From an uncultured Cellvibrionaceae bacterium (GTDB lineage Bacteria; Pseudomonadota; Gammaproteobacteria; Pseudomonadales; Cellvibrionaceae): 35,843 nucleotides of DNA. The position numbers were made by a program, and so were the translations under genes. Below, piece after piece: positions 6,467-17,232 of the stretch. Position 1 is the stretch's first letter, and each line of letters starts with the position of its first letter. A model generated the notes under the pieces. It had not been told where the DNA came from, made no database searches, and saw only the letters and a list, made by a program, of their open reading frames with translations. The stretch is from assembly GCA_964653305.1 (NCBI GenBank), contig CAZZEV010000002.1, forward strand, positions 1-35,843. The letters are read 5' to 3'.

Positions 6467-6689
6467 TGAGGTGTATTTCGTCTTAAGGGTGAGTTCTGCT
6501 AAGGGTAATAGCTTTCAGCTATATCTTCTAATGAGGCCAGCTCTTGTCAGCCAGTTGGAAACTAAACAAATAAAAGACCAAGTAAAGATGAAAAACATCT
6601 GTAATTCGCAAGTGCTTACGAGTGTAACAAACACCTAATCTTTTAAATCAAAAAATATCATGTGCAAGTTATCCATAGTTAGGTGATTT

Positions 6690-7088
6690 ATGAAAAATTG
6701 TGAGAGACGGCAAGATCGTGATTTCGGACTATTTTTTAGCGCACTGTTTATGCTGCTTTCAGCATACTCAACTTACCGAAGTGCGGGTATAGCCCAAATT
6801 GCTGGGTTCCTTATTTTGGGACTAATTATCGGGTTTATTGCCGTTGTTGCCCCGGTTTTCTTGAATCCATTCAGCAAAGCTTGGATGAAGTTAGGCGAAA
6901 TTATGGGGAAAATCTCAAGCCCACTTGTATTGGGTGTAATCTACTTCGTGCTAATTACACCAATTTCATTGTTATTTCAGATATTTGGCCGCGATGCCCT
7001 ACGTCTGAAGAAAGAAAATGTAAATTCCTACTGGATAGACCGGGTGCCACCAGATATCTCCAAGGACTCTTTTAAAAATCAATTTTAA
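6690..7088 (+). CDS. SxtJ-family small membrane protein
   Basis: DRDFG start, two TM helices, WMKLGEIMGKISSPLVLGVIYFVLITPI, GRDAL, SYWI, C-terminal QF. This is the layout I recognise for SxtJ homologs, and it is next to a carbamoyltransferase. Confidence 0.8.
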   Translation: MKNCERRQDRDFGLFFSALFMLLSAYSTYRSAGIAQIAGFLILGLIIGFIAVVAPVFLNPFSKAWMKLGEIMGKISSPLVLGVIYFVLITPISLLFQIFGRDALRLKKENVNSYWIDRVPPDISKDSFKNQF

Positions 7089-7095
7089 GAAATAT

Positions 7096-7245
7096 ATGGA
7101 TTTCATCAAAGAATTATGGAAATTTTTGCGAGCACGTAAAAAACTTTGGCAGTTACCCATAATTGTTATCATTGTGTTGTTTGGGGTCCTACTTTTTGCA
7201 GCCCAAGGAACAGTCATTGCGCCATTTGTATATACATTGTTCTAA
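7096..7245 (+). CDS. 49-aa single-TM peptide, SxtK/DUF5989-like, with C-terminal FVYTLF motif (absent from the ORF track)
   Basis: Manual translation: MDFIKELWKFLRARKKLWQLPIIVIIVLFGVLLFAAQGTVIAPFVYTLF*. It fills the gap between the SxtJ-like gene and the carbamoyltransferase. Confidence 0.88.
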   Translation: MDFIKELWKFLRARKKLWQLPIIVIIVLFGVLLFAAQGTVIAPFVYTLF

Positions 7246-7254
7246 ATTTATTTT

Positions 7255-9090
7255 ATGAAAATACTAGGACTTTCCGCCTACTATCACGACTCGGCGGCCT
7301 GCTTGGTTATTGATGGGGAAATTGTTGCAGCAGTACAGGAAGAGCGATTCACGCGAAAGAAGCATGATGCTGGATTTCCAGCTCATTCAATTAACTACTG
7401 CCTGCAGGAGGCAAAGATCAAAGCTGCGGATCTAGATTCTGTGGTTTTTTACGACAAGCCTTTCCTTAAATTCGACCGTTTGTTAGAGACTTACTTGGCA
7501 TACGCTCCGAAGGGTTTCGAAAGTTTTGCTGCCTCGTTACCTTTGTGGGCTAAGGACAAGTTATTCCAAAAGATGGTGCTGGTAAATGATTTGAAAAACG
7601 TAATTGATGCGAGAGTGGATTGGATGTCAAAAATGTTGTTCTCTGAGCACCATCTGAGCCACGCGTCTTCAGCCTTCTTTCCCTCGCCGTTTGAAGATGC
7701 TGCTGTATTGACAATGGATGGCGTTGGTGAATGGACAACGACTTCAGTCGCAATAGGTGCAGCAAATCAGCTATCAATTCAAAAAGAAATTCATTTTCCG
7801 CATTCTCTGGGCCTCTTGTATTCTGCTTTTACTTATTATACGGGTTTTAAGGTTAACTCGGGTGAATATAAAGTGATGGGGTTAGCAGCTTACGGTGAAC
7901 CCAGATACGCACAACATATAAAAGAACATTTAATCGACATAAAAGAGGATGGTTCTTTTCATCTTGACATGCAGTATTTTAATTACTGCACTAGTCAGAC
8001 TATGACAAACGATAGGTTCGCCGATATCTTTGGTGGTCCACCGCGGAAGAAAGAGGGCATCCTTACACAACGGGATATGGATCTCGCTGCATCTGTTCAA
8101 TCAGTGACGGAAGAGGTCATGATTAAGCTTGCTAAGGGTATTAGAAAATCGACAGGGCAGAAGAACTTGTGTCTAGCAGGAGGTGTGGCTTTAAATTGCG
8201 TTGCGAATGGAAAACTCTTGCGCGAAAATATTTTTGAAAATATATGGATTCAGCCTGCGTCAGGAGATGCAGGTGGAGCAATAGGTGCGGCACTGGCAGC
8301 TTATTACATGATGTTGGAAAAACCGCGAACGGTAAACACATTGGATTCGATGAAGGGGTCGTACCTTGGTCCTGATTTCAAACAGAGTGATATTGAGGAG
8401 CGGCTAAGAGCATTTGGCGCCGTCTATAGCGTATCAGACGAAGAGTCCGTGATATCCGAGACGGCGCTTGCGCTTGCTAAGGGTAGGGCTGTAGGTTGGC
8501 ACCAAGGCCGAATGGAGTTCGGTCCGCGGGCCTTAGGTGGTCGTTCGATCTTGGCCGATCCGCGTGCGCCATGGGTTCAAAAACAACTAAACCTGAAGGT
8601 GAAATACCGTGAGTCATTTAGGCCCTTTGCTCCAAGCATACTCCGCGAGCATGTGGAGGAATGGTTCGATCTTAACTGTGACAGCCCGTACATGCAAATA
8701 GTCGCTTATCTACAAAAGGATAAGCGTATTGAGATGACAAAAGAGCAGCAGCGGTTGTTCGGAATCGATAAGTTGAACGTGCCTCGTTCCGAAATACCGG
8801 CGGTTACTCACGTTGATTACTCTGCACGTATTCAGACAGTGCATGAAACAACCAACCAAAAATTTTACAGGTTAATCAAAAAATTTCACGAATTGACGGG
8901 TTGTCCTGTGCTTGTAAACACATCGTTTAATGTGCGTGGAGAGCCAATAGTGAATACTCCTGAGGATGCTTTCCGTTGCATGATGGGAACGGAGTTGGAT
9001 TTCTTAGTAGTTGGAAATTGTATTCTTCGTAAAGAAGAGCAAAATTCAAAATTAATGGAAAATTATAAAGACTCATATGAGCTCGATTAA
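7255..9090 (+). CDS. O-carbamoyltransferase, NodU/CmcH/TobZ/SxtI family
   Basis: HDSAA, EERFTRKKH, EHHLSHA, DGVGE, GGVALNCVAN, MEFGPRALGGRS, NLKVKYRESFRPFAP, PAVTHVDYSARIQTV, NTSFN. Confidence 0.95.
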   Translation: MKILGLSAYYHDSAACLVIDGEIVAAVQEERFTRKKHDAGFPAHSINYCLQEAKIKAADLDSVVFYDKPFLKFDRLLETYLAYAPKGFESFAASLPLWAKDKLFQKMVLVNDLKNVIDARVDWMSKMLFSEHHLSHASSAFFPSPFEDAAVLTMDGVGEWTTTSVAIGAANQLSIQKEIHFPHSLGLLYSAFTYYTGFKVNSGEYKVMGLAAYGEPRYAQHIKEHLIDIKEDGSFHLDMQYFNYCTSQTMTNDRFADIFGGPPRKKEGILTQRDMDLAASVQSVTEEVMIKLAKGIRKSTGQKNLCLAGGVALNCVANGKLLRENIFENIWIQPASGDAGGAIGAALAAYYMMLEKPRTVNTLDSMKGSYLGPDFKQSDIEERLRAFGAVYSVSDEESVISETALALAKGRAVGWHQGRMEFGPRALGGRSILADPRAPWVQKQLNLKVKYRESFRPFAPSILREHVEEWFDLNCDSPYMQIVAYLQKDKRIEMTKEQQRLFGIDKLNVPRSEIPAVTHVDYSARIQTVHETTNQKFYRLIKKFHELTGCPVLVNTSFNVRGEPIVNTPEDAFRCMMGTELDFLVVGNCILRKEEQNSKLMENYKDSYELD

Positions 9091-9180
9091 TTTTTTTAGT
9101 CAATTAAAGTTATTTCATGTAGATGGAGTTAGATAGTATGCTGCATACCAGATTAAACTATCTTAACAAGAAGTGATATT

Positions 9181-10257
9181 ATGAAGCGTAAATTAATAAT
9201 CGGTTTGACAATAATGATTGCTGTGGGCGTGGCTGTAGGGATTTACAAAAAAATAAGATATAGATTTGCGGAGTATGAAGAAAATCAAAAGGTTTGGGGG
9301 CTTGTCCCTGAGATGAAGAAATTTGATATGACTGAATTAAGGGGTTCTTGGCCAAAGTATCAGTATGATGTCGATACTGTATTCTCCGAAAAAGCACAAG
9401 CAACTAAATACATTAACATCACAGCCTCGGGGGAAAGGGTCTCATTTGAAAATAGTGGATCTGCTGAGGTAATAATGGTTGGTGGCTCTACAATGTTTGG
9501 GTATGGAGTTCCCGATGATTATACTATCCCGTCTATGTTTAATAAAGCACAGGGTAAATATCATGCGGTTAATTATGGAAGGGGTGGTTATTACTCAGAG
9601 CTTGAAACAAAATTAATACTAAAACTTCTAAGATTAGGTAAAAGACCTGCTGAAATAATTATCCTTGACGGACTGAATGATGGTAAAAAAAATCCATTAT
9701 ATTCAAATGAACTCAGCTTTTTATTCGATTCTTTTAACTATAATAAATATAATTACTTCCTTGCTGGGGTGGGGAGTGTAATGCCTTTGATAAAGCCAAG
9801 AAGCATTGGCATCTATGAAAATCCGAGTTATTATCATGATTTAAATCTCTGGTTTGATTCGTATTTGGATAATATCTCGCAAGTCGCACATCTACAGAAG
9901 GCGTATAAATTTAAAGTAAATGTATTTATCCAGCCCATTCCTGGATTTGATAATGAATTCGCGAAGCATGCTTTACTAATTAATGTTCCGTCTGATTTTC
10001 ACGATTATCAATTTGAGAAATATAAAGTAATAAAAAAAAGAATTGGGGAATTAAAGAAAATTGCAAATGTATGTGATTTATCTGGGTTGTTTTCTGGGTA
10101 TGTGCCTTTTCCGTTTGTCGATGGTACGCATTATACGCCGACAGTAAATGCAATAATAGCAAAACGCATGCTGAAATTCATGGAGCTTGGTGTTTGCGAT
10201 GCTAGTAATACTAAACAAGAGATTGCCCCTGAAATTGCGGCTAAGCTTGGAATTTAA
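9181..10257 (+). CDS. membrane-anchored SGNH/GDSL-fold protein (putative extracytoplasmic acyl/carbamoyl transferase or hydrolase)
   Basis: N-terminal basic residues plus TM (MKRKLIIGLTIMIAVGVAVGIY). Block I MVGGSTMFG, block II NYGRGGY, block III ILDGLND, block V DGTHY. Confidence 0.8.
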   Translation: MKRKLIIGLTIMIAVGVAVGIYKKIRYRFAEYEENQKVWGLVPEMKKFDMTELRGSWPKYQYDVDTVFSEKAQATKYINITASGERVSFENSGSAEVIMVGGSTMFGYGVPDDYTIPSMFNKAQGKYHAVNYGRGGYYSELETKLILKLLRLGKRPAEIIILDGLNDGKKNPLYSNELSFLFDSFNYNKYNYFLAGVGSVMPLIKPRSIGIYENPSYYHDLNLWFDSYLDNISQVAHLQKAYKFKVNVFIQPIPGFDNEFAKHALLINVPSDFHDYQFEKYKVIKKRIGELKKIANVCDLSGLFSGYVPFPFVDGTHYTPTVNAIIAKRMLKFMELGVCDASNTKQEIAPEIAAKLGI

Positions 10258-10407
10258 TTTTATCCGGTATCTTAAAAGAGTCGAGTGTGCTCATTACATA
10301 ACATTAGATCATTCATATGACGCAATTGGTATTGGTTTATGGGCATTAATGATTAGAAGGACGATGGTTAATGCATGCAATCTAGTCAAACGTAGGGGTT
10401 GCTGTTC

Positions 10408-14510: not shown

Positions 14511-15740
14511 ATGAGGAAAGGTGATTATATTTATATAATTTATAGAAAATGGAATTTTGAGCCATTCAAATATGCTCTAGGAACTGATAATGTCAAATAT
14601 ATACATGAGATGGACTTAGAGGGTAAACGCGACGATTCTCAGAAACAGTTAGATGGCAAAGAGGTGGAATCCATTATAATGGGTTGTAGGTTGCTGAGGA
14701 ACTTGAATTATGAAGAGGCTAGGCAAAAGATAAATTACGTGGCAGATCAATGGATTAACTTAATGAACATTGAAAGACCAAAATTAGTAATATCTGTAAC
14801 AGTTGACAATTATATATTAGATGTGATTGCAAGAATATGTGAGAAAAATAATATTAAATATTTGGGATTGGTAAATTCTCCGATACCTGGTTATTCTAGG
14901 CTAACAACTCGCGGTAAATTAGAGCAAGGACTTTGGGGGCCAGCACGCACCGAGATAATGGATTTTTATAGAAATAGGCGAAAACCCTCGCACTATGAAG
15001 AAATAAAATTTAAAGTTAAGCTGAAAAAGAGAATTGTAAATTACGCAAGGGAAAAATATTTTAAGATAAAGCATTTATTTGGGGCGAATGATTATCACAC
15101 TATAGTAAATAGCAATTGGGGATCGATCGATAAAGGATATTTAAATGGATCTATTAATGTGGAGGTAAAAGAAAAATACTTCATCCCATTGCAGTTTACG
15201 CCTGAATGCACTGTTGATTATTGGTCGCCAGTATATCCAAATAATGATTACGAGCAATTTATTTGTGATTTAATAAGCAACAATAAAAGTATTAGATTTG
15301 TTCTGAAAGAACATCCGTCATATATGGGGTATAGAAAAAAGAGCTTTATTGAATGGATTAACAAACAAGAAAATTGTGAAGTTATAAGTGTAATGGCTGA
15401 TAATTATGATTTAATATCAAAATGCAAAGCAGTTTGTACGTTGACAGGGACGGTTGGGATTGAAACTGTTATGACGGGCGGTACACTAATTATACTTGGA
15501 GATATTCCGTATTACTTGGACGGATGCAATTCAAGTATTCACATACTAGGTAACGAATTTCATCCTTCTGACGAAATTAAGGAGAGGGTAGTTGAAAATA
15601 TTTCAAAATCATTAATTCGGGGGGGGTTGAAGTTTGAAAAAAAAATTTACGGATGGCGATACAATGAAAATTTAGCAATAGATCTCTCTAAATCACTTAA
15701 TAAATATATTGAGATATACAATGAAGAAAATAAATCTTAA
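14511..15740 (+). CDS. KpsS/Capsule_synth-like protein, putative CMP-nonulosonate (pseudaminyl) transferase
   Basis: C-terminal domain has FIPLQFTPE, LKEHP and TLTGTVGIE, resembling KpsS/KpsC-like CMP-sugar transferases. AT-rich; strong AGAGG SD. Confidence 0.55.
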   Translation: MRKGDYIYIIYRKWNFEPFKYALGTDNVKYIHEMDLEGKRDDSQKQLDGKEVESIIMGCRLLRNLNYEEARQKINYVADQWINLMNIERPKLVISVTVDNYILDVIARICEKNNIKYLGLVNSPIPGYSRLTTRGKLEQGLWGPARTEIMDFYRNRRKPSHYEEIKFKVKLKKRIVNYAREKYFKIKHLFGANDYHTIVNSNWGSIDKGYLNGSINVEVKEKYFIPLQFTPECTVDYWSPVYPNNDYEQFICDLISNNKSIRFVLKEHPSYMGYRKKSFIEWINKQENCEVISVMADNYDLISKCKAVCTLTGTVGIETVMTGGTLIILGDIPYYLDGCNSSIHILGNEFHPSDEIKERVVENISKSLIRGGLKFEKKIYGWRYNENLAIDLSKSLNKYIEIYNEENKS

Positions 15741-17232
15741 AATTAGTATAGAGCAATACGCTAAAGCAGGCTTTGATATTACACAAGATGAGGAATTCCT
15801 ATATATTAAAAGCTGCATAAATATAAGAGATGAATGTTTTTATAAGATAACAGACGACGAAATAGTAATATTTGGATCAGATGAGTATGCCAAACTAATG
15901 GATTCGAATGAAACAATATTAGACTATAAAAATATAAATTATTTTATTAAGAATTATGTGTTTCCAACTGGGGAAACTGGTATAGATGGTGTCAAGAGAA
16001 TTGAGCCTAATTCAAAATATTCATTTCACAGAAAAACACTCACTATAGATTCGACGAGAATAGATATTGGAAGTGATCTGGGCCAACGAAAATACGTAAG
16101 TATAGAAATATTTGATAAAACATTTCAGACTGTTTTACATGATAAAATCAAAAAACAAGACGGGAAAAATGTTGGTGTTTTATTTAGCGGAGGTGTAGAT
16201 AGTATTTACATTGTAATTTCATTGTTAAGAATGAATATTAGACCTATTCTTTTGACTTTTAAACCATCGCCAGCATTTGATTCATCCGAGATTGACATCG
16301 TTAGATCTGAATATTGTGGAAAACTATTCGAATTGGAGCATTACTTTGTTGAAACACATATAGATAAAAATAAATTAATTTCTTACTGGAAAAATCTAAA
16401 AAGAGAAATGCCTATGGCAGTTCATACTGGAATATTTTTTGATGAATTGATACAGTTTTCAAAAATTAAAGGAATAAAAATATTAATTTCCGGTCAAAAT
16501 GCTGATACATTTTACAATTTTGGGCCTACAAGTAAGTTTAAATTTGATGTTTCGAGTATGGCAGATACATTTAGACGGTTTTTCCTAACAGATTTCATAA
16601 TCAGTGCGCTAAATCAGAATCAGAAGGGATTCATAAATAAATTGAAAAAAAATCTAGCCATTGGAACATTAAATATTGGGGCTTATGTTTATCAATTATT
16701 AAAGAAAGATGGAGCTAATTATAGAAGGCCCAGAAATGCAGAAGAAGCGTATGAGGCCTATGTCAACAGGCCAGATTATACAATATTCCCAGAAATTAAT
16801 AAGATTCAAACGGCCACTTGTGCAAAGCAAAATTTCGAATTTTATTCTGAAATCATAACGCACAAGATATATAATTTTATAACGAGTGGTGCGCCAATGG
16901 TAATTCATAATACTGCTCTTAGAAATGAAATTGAATCGATAACTCCATTTTCAGAGCGTGAGATGTTAAATTTATTTTCCCATCTGAATCGAAATATTGG
17001 AGATGTTATTTATCCAAAAAAATACATATATCGATCCATAATAAAATATAGACCTGACCTTTTAGTCAATTTAGAGAAGTTGGAAAAAGGGATAGCAGGG
17101 CCAAATTACCACAAGTGGCTAAATGATAATCTTGACTATTTCAGTACTTCAAATGATTCAATACAAGGTGGCAACTATAATTCGGCCACAAATTTCATGC
17201 GCAAGTTGGCAAATTTTTGGATTGAAAAATAA
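15721..17232 (+). CDS. asparagine-synthetase-like ATP pyrophosphatase (amide/amidine ligase) lacking the N-terminal glutaminase Cys
   Basis: PP-loop VLFSGGVDS, ISGQNADTFY (SGEGAD-like), TPF and PKK motifs. No MCG N-terminus. Confidence 0.68.
   Translation: MKKINLKISIEQYAKAGFDITQDEEFLYIKSCINIRDECFYKITDDEIVIFGSDEYAKLMDSNETILDYKNINYFIKNYVFPTGETGIDGVKRIEPNSKYSFHRKTLTIDSTRIDIGSDLGQRKYVSIEIFDKTFQTVLHDKIKKQDGKNVGVLFSGGVDSIYIVISLLRMNIRPILLTFKPSPAFDSSEIDIVRSEYCGKLFELEHYFVETHIDKNKLISYWKNLKREMPMAVHTGIFFDELIQFSKIKGIKILISGQNADTFYNFGPTSKFKFDVSSMADTFRRFFLTDFIISALNQNQKGFINKLKKNLAIGTLNIGAYVYQLLKKDGANYRRPRNAEEAYEAYVNRPDYTIFPEINKIQTATCAKQNFEFYSEIITHKIYNFITSGAPMVIHNTALRNEIESITPFSEREMLNLFSHLNRNIGDVIYPKKYIYRSIIKYRPDLLVNLEKLEKGIAGPNYHKWLNDNLDYFSTSNDSIQGGNYNSATNFMRKLANFWIEK

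What the first reader, a model, noticed from the sequence alone, without database searches (positions are those of the whole stretch)
7096..7245. Unannotated 49-aa peptide carrying the DltX/AlgI tyrosine acyl-shuttle motif
The ORF is below the track's size cutoff. It has an amphipathic basic N-terminus (RARKK), one TM helix, a short linker and terminal P-F-V-Y-T-L-F-COOH (FVYTLF and stop at 7225..7245). This parallels DltX, which ends in FIYNEF, in size, architecture and motif. The positive-inside rule would put the motif on the periplasmic face, where the SGNH domain is predicted to be. I am not aware of an assigned function for SxtK/DUF5989 peptides.
Basis: partly seen in the sequence, partly recalled or inferred. 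Interest (0 to 1): 0.85.

Follow-up and report, generated by a model that had tools for sequence, protein, structure and literature searches.

The report
Tyrosine-tailed carbamoyl shuttle microprotein
This is a real, highly conserved 49-residue gene ending in an invariant tyrosine; it almost always sits beside a carbamoyl-adding enzyme, often beside an esterase-fold enzyme too, and its protein likely carries the carbamoyl group from one to the other, probably across the membrane onto a surface sugar, by a route without the usual membrane acyltransferase.

Summary
The ORF is real: 7096-7245, 49 aa, DUF5989, ending FVYTLF-stop. Tyr(-4) is kept in 76 of 76 genomic copies. The DltX-like motif reading holds, but the donor is not an MBOAT (2 of 139 loci). 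It is a NodU/TobZ-type carbamoyltransferase (130 of 139), with SxtJ (127) and an SGNH protein (77). Relatives show the same Tyr tail fused to the carbamoyltransferase itself (18 proteins), on a soluble protein, and on TM-less GvgB-like peptides; in the published gvg cluster the SGNH, carbamoyltransferase and both small ORFs are each required. SGNH partners carry a membrane anchor when the peptide has a TM helix (75 of 84) and not when it lacks one (0 of 10). Best model (0.55): carbamoyl-AMP -> peptide Tyr -> SGNH Ser -> acceptor, here probably O-antigen. No covalent step is shown, the membrane crossing is unexplained, 39 of 95 well-covered loci lack a nearby SGNH, and complex prediction gave weak support only. 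Not found in print in ten searches.

The parts
7096..7245 (+). DUF5989 (SxtK-type) microprotein, 49 aa
7096..7143 (+). N-terminal amphipathic, basic helix (residues 1-16), predicted to lie on the cytoplasmic face
   Evidence: hydrophobic moment 0.87; charge bias
7144..7200 (+). predicted TM helix, residues 17-35; W18 and P21 invariant in alignment A1
7225..7245 (+). C-terminal FxYxxF motif and stop; Tyr46 codon 7231-7233
   Evidence: Tyr 76 of 76 copies
6690..7088 (+). SxtJ-family small membrane protein, 132 aa; predicted membrane anchor of the carbamoyltransferase
   Evidence: PF19588 36.5 bits; fused to the carbamoyltransferase in L072 and L075
7255..9090 (+). NodU/CmcH/TobZ-type O-carbamoyltransferase, 611 aa, with H132, H136, D155, D338 and GPRALGGR intact
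   Evidence: PF02543 + PF16861; AF2 pLDDT 91, TM 0.77-0.83 to GdmN/TobZ/NovN/VtdB
7459..7563 (+). conserved amphipathic two-helix segment of the carbamoyltransferase (residues 69-103; R75, K102 invariant), predicted membrane/partner contact
   Evidence: profile positions 77-127 unmatched in the tail-fused enzymes L179, L187
9181..10257 (+). SGNH/GDSL-fold protein, 358 aa, N-terminal TM anchor, S103-D314-H317; predicted final transferase
   Evidence: weak NCBIfam hit E 9e-4; E 4.9e-16 to a profile of neighbour SGNHs built without it

Best explanation
The peptide is likely the carrier of a four-part carbamoyl relay, in which the neighbouring carbamoyltransferase would load a carbamoyl group onto its C-terminal Tyr46 and the membrane-anchored SGNH protein would take it off and place it on an acceptor outside the inner membrane, here probably an O-antigen sugar. 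Steps: (1) the enzyme makes carbamoyl-AMP from carbamoyl phosphate and ATP (family knowledge; fold and residues shown); (2) it is held at the membrane by SxtJ and its own amphipathic helices (inferred from natural fusions); (3) it carbamoylates the Tyr phenol, giving an activated aryl carbamate (inferred); (4) the hydrophobic 12-residue tail swings to the SGNH serine (inferred; the path through the membrane is unknown); (5) the SGNH protein, the variable part of the module, chooses the acceptor (inferred).
For: Tyr 76/76 and stop fixed after the motif; motif equals the proven FXYXXF shuttle of DltX/PatA (PMC12148441 passages). Neighbours in 139 loci: carbamoyltransferase 130, SxtJ 127, SGNH 77, MBOAT 2. 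From the enzyme side: of 72 carbamoyltransferase hits at 51% identity or more in 401 genomes, 67 have the peptide within about 2.5 kb, 3 have another Tyr tail, 2 have none seen (searches compared by eye; 54, 93, 116, 133). The tail is fused to the enzyme's own C-terminus in 18 of 37 hits (..VYTFF, VYTLF, VYTLL, IYTLL) and in a Streptomyces plasmid gene followed by an SGNH-like gene. TM-less peptides ending S[IT]YP[ML][FHR] follow the SGNH gene in 6 of 6 gvg-type loci with a carbamoyltransferase, and a J-like ORF follows the enzyme in 4 of these 6; in P. fluorescens WH6 deletions of gvgA, gvgB, gvgF and gvgG each abolish the product and are complemented (10.1101/080572 passages). All tail-linked enzymes fall in one 96*-supported clade. 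SGNH anchor tracks peptide TM: 75/84 versus 0/10. Median identity: enzyme 62%, peptide 59%, SxtJ 32%, SGNH 17%, as expected if the enzyme always sees the same peptide. Complex prediction enzyme+SxtJ+peptide: weak support, score 0.56 versus best control 0.00 (peptide with SxtJ but enzyme replaced also 0.00); runs agree in at least 94% of contacts, partner pLDDT at least 71; the mark was reached by 116 of 157 solved and 2 of 215 mismatched pairs, but at 0.60 or under by only 18 solved and both mismatches.
Against: No covalent intermediate or activity shown. No channel or catalytic membrane residue: SxtJ has no invariant residue, so how a C-out Tyr meets a cytoplasmic active site is unexplained. 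39 of 95 loci with 4 kb on both sides have no SGNH within about 6 kb (not sought elsewhere in those genomes). AF2 leaves the fused tail disordered (pLDDT 31). Two enzymes inside the clade show no tail (L177, L180). GvgB-like peptides are not detectably homologous to the DUF5989 profile (E 0.04-0.34 per sequence, HHalign 1%): the link is position, N-terminal helix and Tyr(-4) only. The closest solved SGNH is CgnD, reported as a slow peptidase. TobZ-type enzymes normally carbamoylate their acceptor directly. The acceptor in this window is inferred from gene context alone.
Confidence: 0.55

Rival explanations
1. The peptide is a non-covalent accessory subunit: with SxtJ it anchors or activates the carbamoyltransferase at the inner membrane face, the enzyme carbamoylates a lipid-linked or soluble acceptor directly, Tyr is a binding determinant, and the SGNH protein is an optional editing hydrolase.
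For: SGNH missing near 39 of 95 loci; published view that small TM proteins 'facilitate' these enzymes and that SxtL removes carbamoyl groups (proposed); WapO-type enzymes carbamoylate LPS core without such a relay; W18 and P21 are as invariant as Tyr.
Against: Tyr never becomes Phe in 76 copies although neighbouring Phe positions vary; the tail persists in soluble and enzyme-fused forms that have no membrane segment; gvgA and pnp1B (SGNH) are required for product formation, not dispensable.
Confidence: 0.2
2. Same Tyr relay chemistry, but wholly on the cytoplasmic side: the hydrophobic segment is re-entrant, the tail faces inward, and the acceptor is a nucleotide sugar or lipid-linked O unit before flipping.
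For: TM-less and fused forms work without crossing a membrane; removes the need for a channel; 13 of 75 anchored SGNHs have more positive charge on the C side and 13 are level.
Against: 19-residue segment of mean KD 2.7 with a clear positive-inside bias; SGNH anchors appear exactly when the peptide has this segment, and 49 of 75 are N-in by charge.
Confidence: 0.12
3. The peptide is a consumed, RiPP-like precursor as in crocagin: its Tyr-containing end is carbamoylated and cut off by a CgnD-like SGNH peptidase.
For: CgnD is the only solved chain matched over most of the SGNH profile in one stretch (E 4.9e-20) and is close to GvgA-like proteins (E 2.9e-58); CgnA is Lys-rich with a Tyr in its core and the cluster has a carbamoyltransferase.
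Against: The tail is nearly constant across phyla while contexts differ; it is fused to a 590-aa enzyme in 18 proteins; the gvg product is a non-proteinogenic amino acid; in most crocagin-like clusters a glycosyltransferase replaces the carbamoyltransferase; the window SGNH matches CgnD only at E 0.01.
Confidence: 0.07
4. It is a DltX/AlgI-type shuttle fed by an MBOAT elsewhere in the genome and carries acetyl or aminoacyl groups.
For: Identical motif class; the genome has one MBOAT.
Against: That MBOAT has its own FIYFQF tail; MBOAT in 2 of 139 loci against carbamoyltransferase in 130.
Confidence: 0.03

Closest known systems
DltX with DltB (MBOAT) and DltD (SGNH); PatA/PatB and AlgI-type C-terminal FXYXXF shuttles (PMC12148441, passages read; the 2023 DltX paper was not held)
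   Same: About 50-aa single-TM microprotein, C-terminal FxYxxF with invariant Tyr, anchored SGNH partner with Ser-Asp-His
   Different: No MBOAT; partner is a soluble ATP-dependent carbamoyltransferase plus SxtJ; cargo would be carbamoyl; no detectable family homology beyond the motif
SxtI-SxtJ-SxtK-SxtL of cyanobacterial saxitoxin clusters (PMC2679770, PMC2684587, PMC3037375, bioRxiv 2026.06.11.731795; passages read)
   Same: Same four gene types; SxtJ Pfam hit; SxtI 1839 bp versus 1836 bp here; catalytic GPRALG motif
   Different: Here in an O-antigen cluster; papers list SxtJ/K as unknown and propose SxtL as a decarbamoylase; no SxtK sequence was fetched, so SxtK = DUF5989 rests on order and size
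gvgA/B/F/G of the FVG cluster and pnp1B/D of PNP-1 (10.1101/080572, PMC8064604, PMC4010436; passages read)
   Same: SGNH + small Lys-rich ORF + carbamoyltransferase of the same clade + small TM ORF, all genetically required; authors noted a possible common role of small TM proteins beside such enzymes
   Different: Peptide and SGNH lack TM helices (cytoplasmic); SxtJ reduced to its C-terminal half; no Tyr motif or relay proposed in the passages read
TobZ, GdmN, NovN, VtdB, NodU, WapO O-carbamoyltransferases
   Same: Fold, metal and nucleotide site residues
   Different: They act directly on their acceptors; none of 48 control loci of distant relatives had a Tyr-tail frame
Crocagin CgnA/CgnD/CgnI (PMC10070186, PMC10885120; passages read)
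   Same: Basic peptide with Tyr near its end, related SGNH, carbamoyltransferase in the cluster
   Different: CgnA is oxidised, cyclised and cleaved; Tyr is at -2; needs CgnB/C/E, for which no counterpart was seen here

Membership tests
DUF5989 (PF19451) | HMM score above the gathering cut-off over the full model | tested here: met
   80.2 bits, 1-49/49, cut-off 27
DltX | C-terminal FXYXXF with invariant Tyr | tested here: met
   FVYTLF; Tyr 76/76; motif definition
DltX | single-TM microprotein, N-in, motif outside | tested here: inconclusive
   predicted by hydropathy and charge only
DltX | sequence match to a DltX family model | tested here: not met
   no DltX-named model among hits of 74 members at E up to 10 in Pfam or NCBIfam; that these libraries hold such a model is recalled
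DltX / AlgI-PatA shuttles | works with an MBOAT | tested here: not met
   MBOAT in 2 of 139 loci, both with own tail
AlgI-PatA C-terminal module | profile homology to MBOAT tails | tested here: inconclusive
   HHalign probability 34%, 13 columns, five template rows
Tyr acyl shuttles | covalent acyl-Tyr intermediate passed to an SGNH serine | not testable with these tools
   needs biochemistry
SxtI/J/K/L-type module | carbamoyltransferase + SxtJ + small TM peptide + GDSL protein together | tested here: met
SxtK itself | sequence identity to SxtK of saxitoxin clusters | not tested
   no sxt gene fetched; 165-bp size and order and I-J-K-SGNH loci in Microcoleus (L149, L155) are indirect
GvgB | short Lys-rich peptide without TM after the SGNH gene | tested here: not met
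   this peptide has a TM segment; no profile homology; analogous Tyr(-4) only
Crocagin-type RiPP precursor | soluble leader plus core, with CgnB/C/E-type tailoring genes | tested here: not met
   TM helix; no such families among 114 neighbours scanned in Pfam
NodU/CmcH carbamoyltransferase (neighbour) | both Pfam domains, TobZ fold, metal ligands | tested here: met
   ligand roles recalled from TobZ
SGNH/GDSL (neighbour) | block I Ser and block V Asp-x-x-His | tested here: met
   S103, D314, H317; no Pfam hit

The most novel reading that the evidence does not exclude
A whole clade of NodU/TobZ-like enzymes does not carbamoylate its final substrate but a C-terminal tyrosine peptide, found as a TM microprotein (DUF5989), a TM-less peptide (GvgB-like), a soluble domain or the enzyme's own tail; the SGNH partner is the true transferase, and the TM form moves carbamoyl groups across the inner membrane with no MBOAT. 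One mechanism would then explain DUF5989, SxtJ, SxtK/SxtL and GvgA/B/G.
Probability: 0.45. Interest if true: 0.88.

Novelty: new variant of a known kind. Interest (0 to 1): 0.74.

Why it matters
It would give a function to two widespread unknown families (DUF5989: 68 of 401 sampled genomes; 5,889 cluster representatives; and SxtJ), extend the tyrosine acyl-shuttle principle to carbamoyl groups and to a donor that is not an MBOAT, and point to an undescribed carbamoylation of surface glycans. It also turns open questions in natural-product genetics (why gvgA, gvgB and gvgG are required; what sxtJ, sxtK and sxtL do) into single-residue predictions, and suggests that several SGNH proteins annotated as hydrolases are transferases.

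Tried and rejected
Viral contigs: no relative. Word-based homolog search found 1 hit and only the self hit for the soluble 107-aa tail protein, so that form rests on one sequence. The 80 GTDB loci were fetched with a pattern holding the Tyr and the 150 representatives (Tyr 150/150) are top scorers: neither is counted for invariance; five sub-cut-off matches were dropped. 28 of those 150 have unconserved C-terminal extensions, and one is an SxtJ-peptide read-through; taken as likely sequence artefacts. Alignment A5 was misaligned and not used. One search timed out; the maximum-likelihood tree did not finish, so the tree is FastTree only; one row labelled K (L150, second enzyme copy) lies outside the clade. 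AF2 of a tail-fused enzyme did not dock the tail. RNA-library contigs cover pieces of SxtJ, the enzyme and the SGNH gene but not the peptide: no evidence on expression. No solved relative of the peptide (best E 0.064). The Atlas search did not complete. Three loci with a GvgA-like hit but no carbamoyltransferase (L247-L249) showed no Tyr peptide. Two papers were not held, and bioRxiv figures and supplements were not seen, so the WH6 GvgB sequence was never compared. MBOAT-fed and RiPP readings considered and ranked low.

Full report
Observation. The ORF 7096-7245 (+) encodes 49 aa ending PFVYTLF-stop and is a full-length DUF5989 member (80.2 bits). It lies 7 nt after an SxtJ-family gene (6690-7088) and 9 nt before a NodU/TobZ-type carbamoyltransferase (7255-9090), followed by an SGNH-fold gene (9181-10257). 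The cassette sits among nucleotide-sugar and O-antigen genes (Wzz-like, cytidylyltransferase, glycosyltransferase by Pfam; the pseudaminic-acid, Wzx/Wzy and Fnl labels for others are recalled from motifs; 12 window ORFs were Pfam-scanned). Only 2 of 10,386 Met-started frames in the genome end in FxYxxF: this one and the tail of the single MBOAT.

Conservation. A Pfam search of 401 genomes found matches over the cut-off in 68, 76 copies in all; all 76 were read. Tyr(-4) is kept in 76, the last residue is Phe 71/Tyr 5, F(-6) 71, P(-7) 73, and the stop follows the motif in 76. Tyr and stop codons vary synonymously and third positions are least conserved, so the gene is under protein-level selection. 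The HMM that selected these copies scores the Tyr, but the weakest hit is 30 bits over the cut-off, so a Tyr loss would not have hidden a copy. The family has 5,889 representatives at E 0.001.

Partners. In 139 wide loci (60 from the genome sample including the window, 79 from GTDB after removing one duplicate) a carbamoyltransferase is present in 130, SxtJ in 127, an SGNH protein in 77 and an MBOAT in 2; in the 95 loci with 4 kb on both sides the counts are 91, 90, 56 and 2 (family names). Both MBOATs carry their own FIYFDF tail. Kin are not independent, but the loci span several phyla. SxtJ is fused to the enzyme's C-terminus in L072 and L075. Median identities are 62% (enzyme), 59% (peptide), 32% (SxtJ), 17% (SGNH). 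From the enzyme side, 72 hits have 51% identity or more; 67 have the peptide close by, three have another Tyr tail, one has the peptide and SxtJ on another contig and one is on a 2-kb contig (searches compared by eye; 54, 93, 116, 133).

Other forms of the tail. (a) Fused: 18 of 37 hits to the C-terminal region of a sister enzyme end in [RDKHL][VI]YT[FL]x (one ends a residue short); the other 19 do not, 18 of them ending in the acidic ..LD tail of peptide-linked enzymes. Five such loci of one related group (L179, L187, L194, L195, L200) and a Streptomyces plasmid (L233) have a TM-less SGNH-like gene next, those checked in NRPS/PKS contexts. (b) Soluble: a 107-aa protein ending SPFIYVMF after SGNH and enzyme (L175; one sequence only). 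(c) TM-less peptides: amphipathic helix, Lys run, S[IT]YP[ML][FHR]-stop right after the SGNH gene in 6 of 6 gvg-type loci with the enzyme, and a similar ..DIYPFF peptide beside an SGNH::degenerate-enzyme fusion (L173). A relaxed tail pattern closed no frame in 48 control loci (416 kb) of distant enzymes, a set chosen after excluding those with tails. By position, size, Lys content and lack of TM these match GvgB as described; the small ORF after the enzyme matches the C-terminal half of SxtJ in 4 of the 6 (E 1.8e-5 to 0.024), like GvgG. In WH6, gvgA, gvgB, gvgF and gvgG deletions are each null and complemented (10.1101/080572, passages), gvgA/B/C/F are the core of gvg-like clusters (PMC8064604, passages), and SGNH and enzyme mutants lose PNP-1 (PMC4010436, passages). 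I did not see the WH6 sequences, and these peptides do not match the DUF5989 profile. A FastTree of 84 enzymes puts all tail-linked ones in one 96* clade of 58 rows that also holds two rows without a seen tail.

Topology. The peptide has one 19-residue hydrophobic segment with positive charge on the N side. SGNH partners of TM peptides have an N-terminal TM segment in 75 of 84 examined (of 103 hits; short frames and those without a located block I left out); those of fused, soluble and GvgB-like forms in 0 of 10 (3 of 5 further GvgA-like rows could not be scored). So tail and SGNH domain change compartment together. The window SGNH keeps S103, D314, H317. The enzyme has the TobZ/GdmN fold plus two conserved amphipathic helices (69-103) that are shortened or divergent in the fused enzymes.

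Structure tests. Enzyme + SxtJ + peptide scored 0.56 against a best control of 0.00: weak support, with at least 94% contact agreement and partner pLDDT at least 71; at 0.60 or under only 18 of 157 solved complexes and both passing mismatches (of 215) reached the mark, and no contacts were given. AF2 left a fused tail disordered. The closest solved SGNH over the whole domain is the crocagin peptidase CgnD, which grounds the RiPP rival (PMC10070186, PMC10885120, passages).

Mechanism. Best reading (0.55): carbamoyl-AMP -> Tyr46 aryl carbamate -> SGNH Ser103 -> acceptor hydroxyl outside the inner membrane, probably on O-antigen. Shown: the gene, the invariant Tyr, the partners, intact catalytic residues, the alternative tail forms. 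Inferred: every chemical step, the topology and the acceptor. That aryl carbamates carbamoylate serine hydrolases and hydrolyse slowly is my own knowledge, not a call. Against: no channel residue in SxtJ, no SGNH near 39 of 95 loci, no docking of the tail, direct action of known family members (PMC13584161, passages; PMC8005017, passages). Rivals: accessory anchor (0.20), inward-facing relay (0.12), RiPP-like precursor (0.07), MBOAT-fed shuttle (0.03).

Known and new. It works like DltX/PatA (PMC12148441, passages; 'carbamoyl' occurs 0 times there) but fails DltX membership on family match and MBOAT partner. The saxitoxin papers (passages) say SxtJ/K act 'in conjunction' with SxtI, function unknown, and propose SxtL as a decarbamoylase; Okrent et al. 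suggested small TM proteins help such enzymes. Ten library searches found no paper naming DUF5989 or proposing a Tyr-carbamoyl relay; subscription papers, two papers not held and bioRxiv supplements could bear on this. Earlier notes of this scan reached the same idea on other DNA; they are not evidence, and the word GvgB was in none. Verdict: real feature, member of DUF5989, new variant of the tyrosine-shuttle kind; interest 0.74.

Noticed in passing
L175:10376-10540 (+): Stand-alone 55-aa TM peptide ending FLYGRF between an MBOAT that lacks the C-terminal tail and an SGNH gene, with an AMP-binding enzyme upstream: a true DltX-type split in a proteobacterial genome; no Pfam hit.
   Followed up: partly
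L072:6187-8400, L075:6188-8401 (-): Natural carbamoyltransferase-SxtJ fusions (738 aa) directly before the peptide, flanked by two SGNH genes and a methyltransferase.
   Followed up: partly
L173:7602-10853 (-); L244:5313-6896 (+): A TM-less SGNH fused to a degenerate carbamoyltransferase (1068 aa), and a second degenerate carbamoyltransferase copy after a GvgB-like peptide.
   Followed up: partly
L037, L038, L046, L086: SxtJ-peptide-enzyme follow lptF/lptG-like genes with no SGNH nearby, hinting at LPS core or lipid A as target in that group.
   Followed up: no
L034:6001-6358 (-): Two tandem DUF5989 copies, ending IYTMF and IYTLY.
   Followed up: no
window 6600-7600 and 9000-10400: GC falls to 38-40% over SxtJ/peptide and 35% over the SGNH gene against 47-57% in flanks: the cassette, above all its SGNH gene, may be a later insertion between the cytidylyltransferase and the next sugar gene.
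   Followed up: no
G000:C354 (L002): The genome's only MBOAT is AlgI-like with its own FIYFQF tail.
   Followed up: yes
L234:6794-10996: Sinorhizobium meliloti pSymB carries the full SGNH/SxtJ/peptide/enzyme module near a GH26 gene; 43 plasmid records match the peptide, mostly Sinorhizobium/Ensifer.
   Followed up: partly
L034, L069-L076: A related SAM methyltransferase lies next to the module in nine loci (cluster c4).
   Followed up: no
L051, L135: Peptide copies with no enzyme, SxtJ or SGNH within 6 kb on either side; L051 is next to MoxR/DUF58 and pilin genes.
   Followed up: no
window 14511-17232: A capsule-synthesis-family protein (PF05159) and a divergent asparagine-synthase-like protein, possible further sugar-modifying genes of the same cluster.
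   Followed up: no
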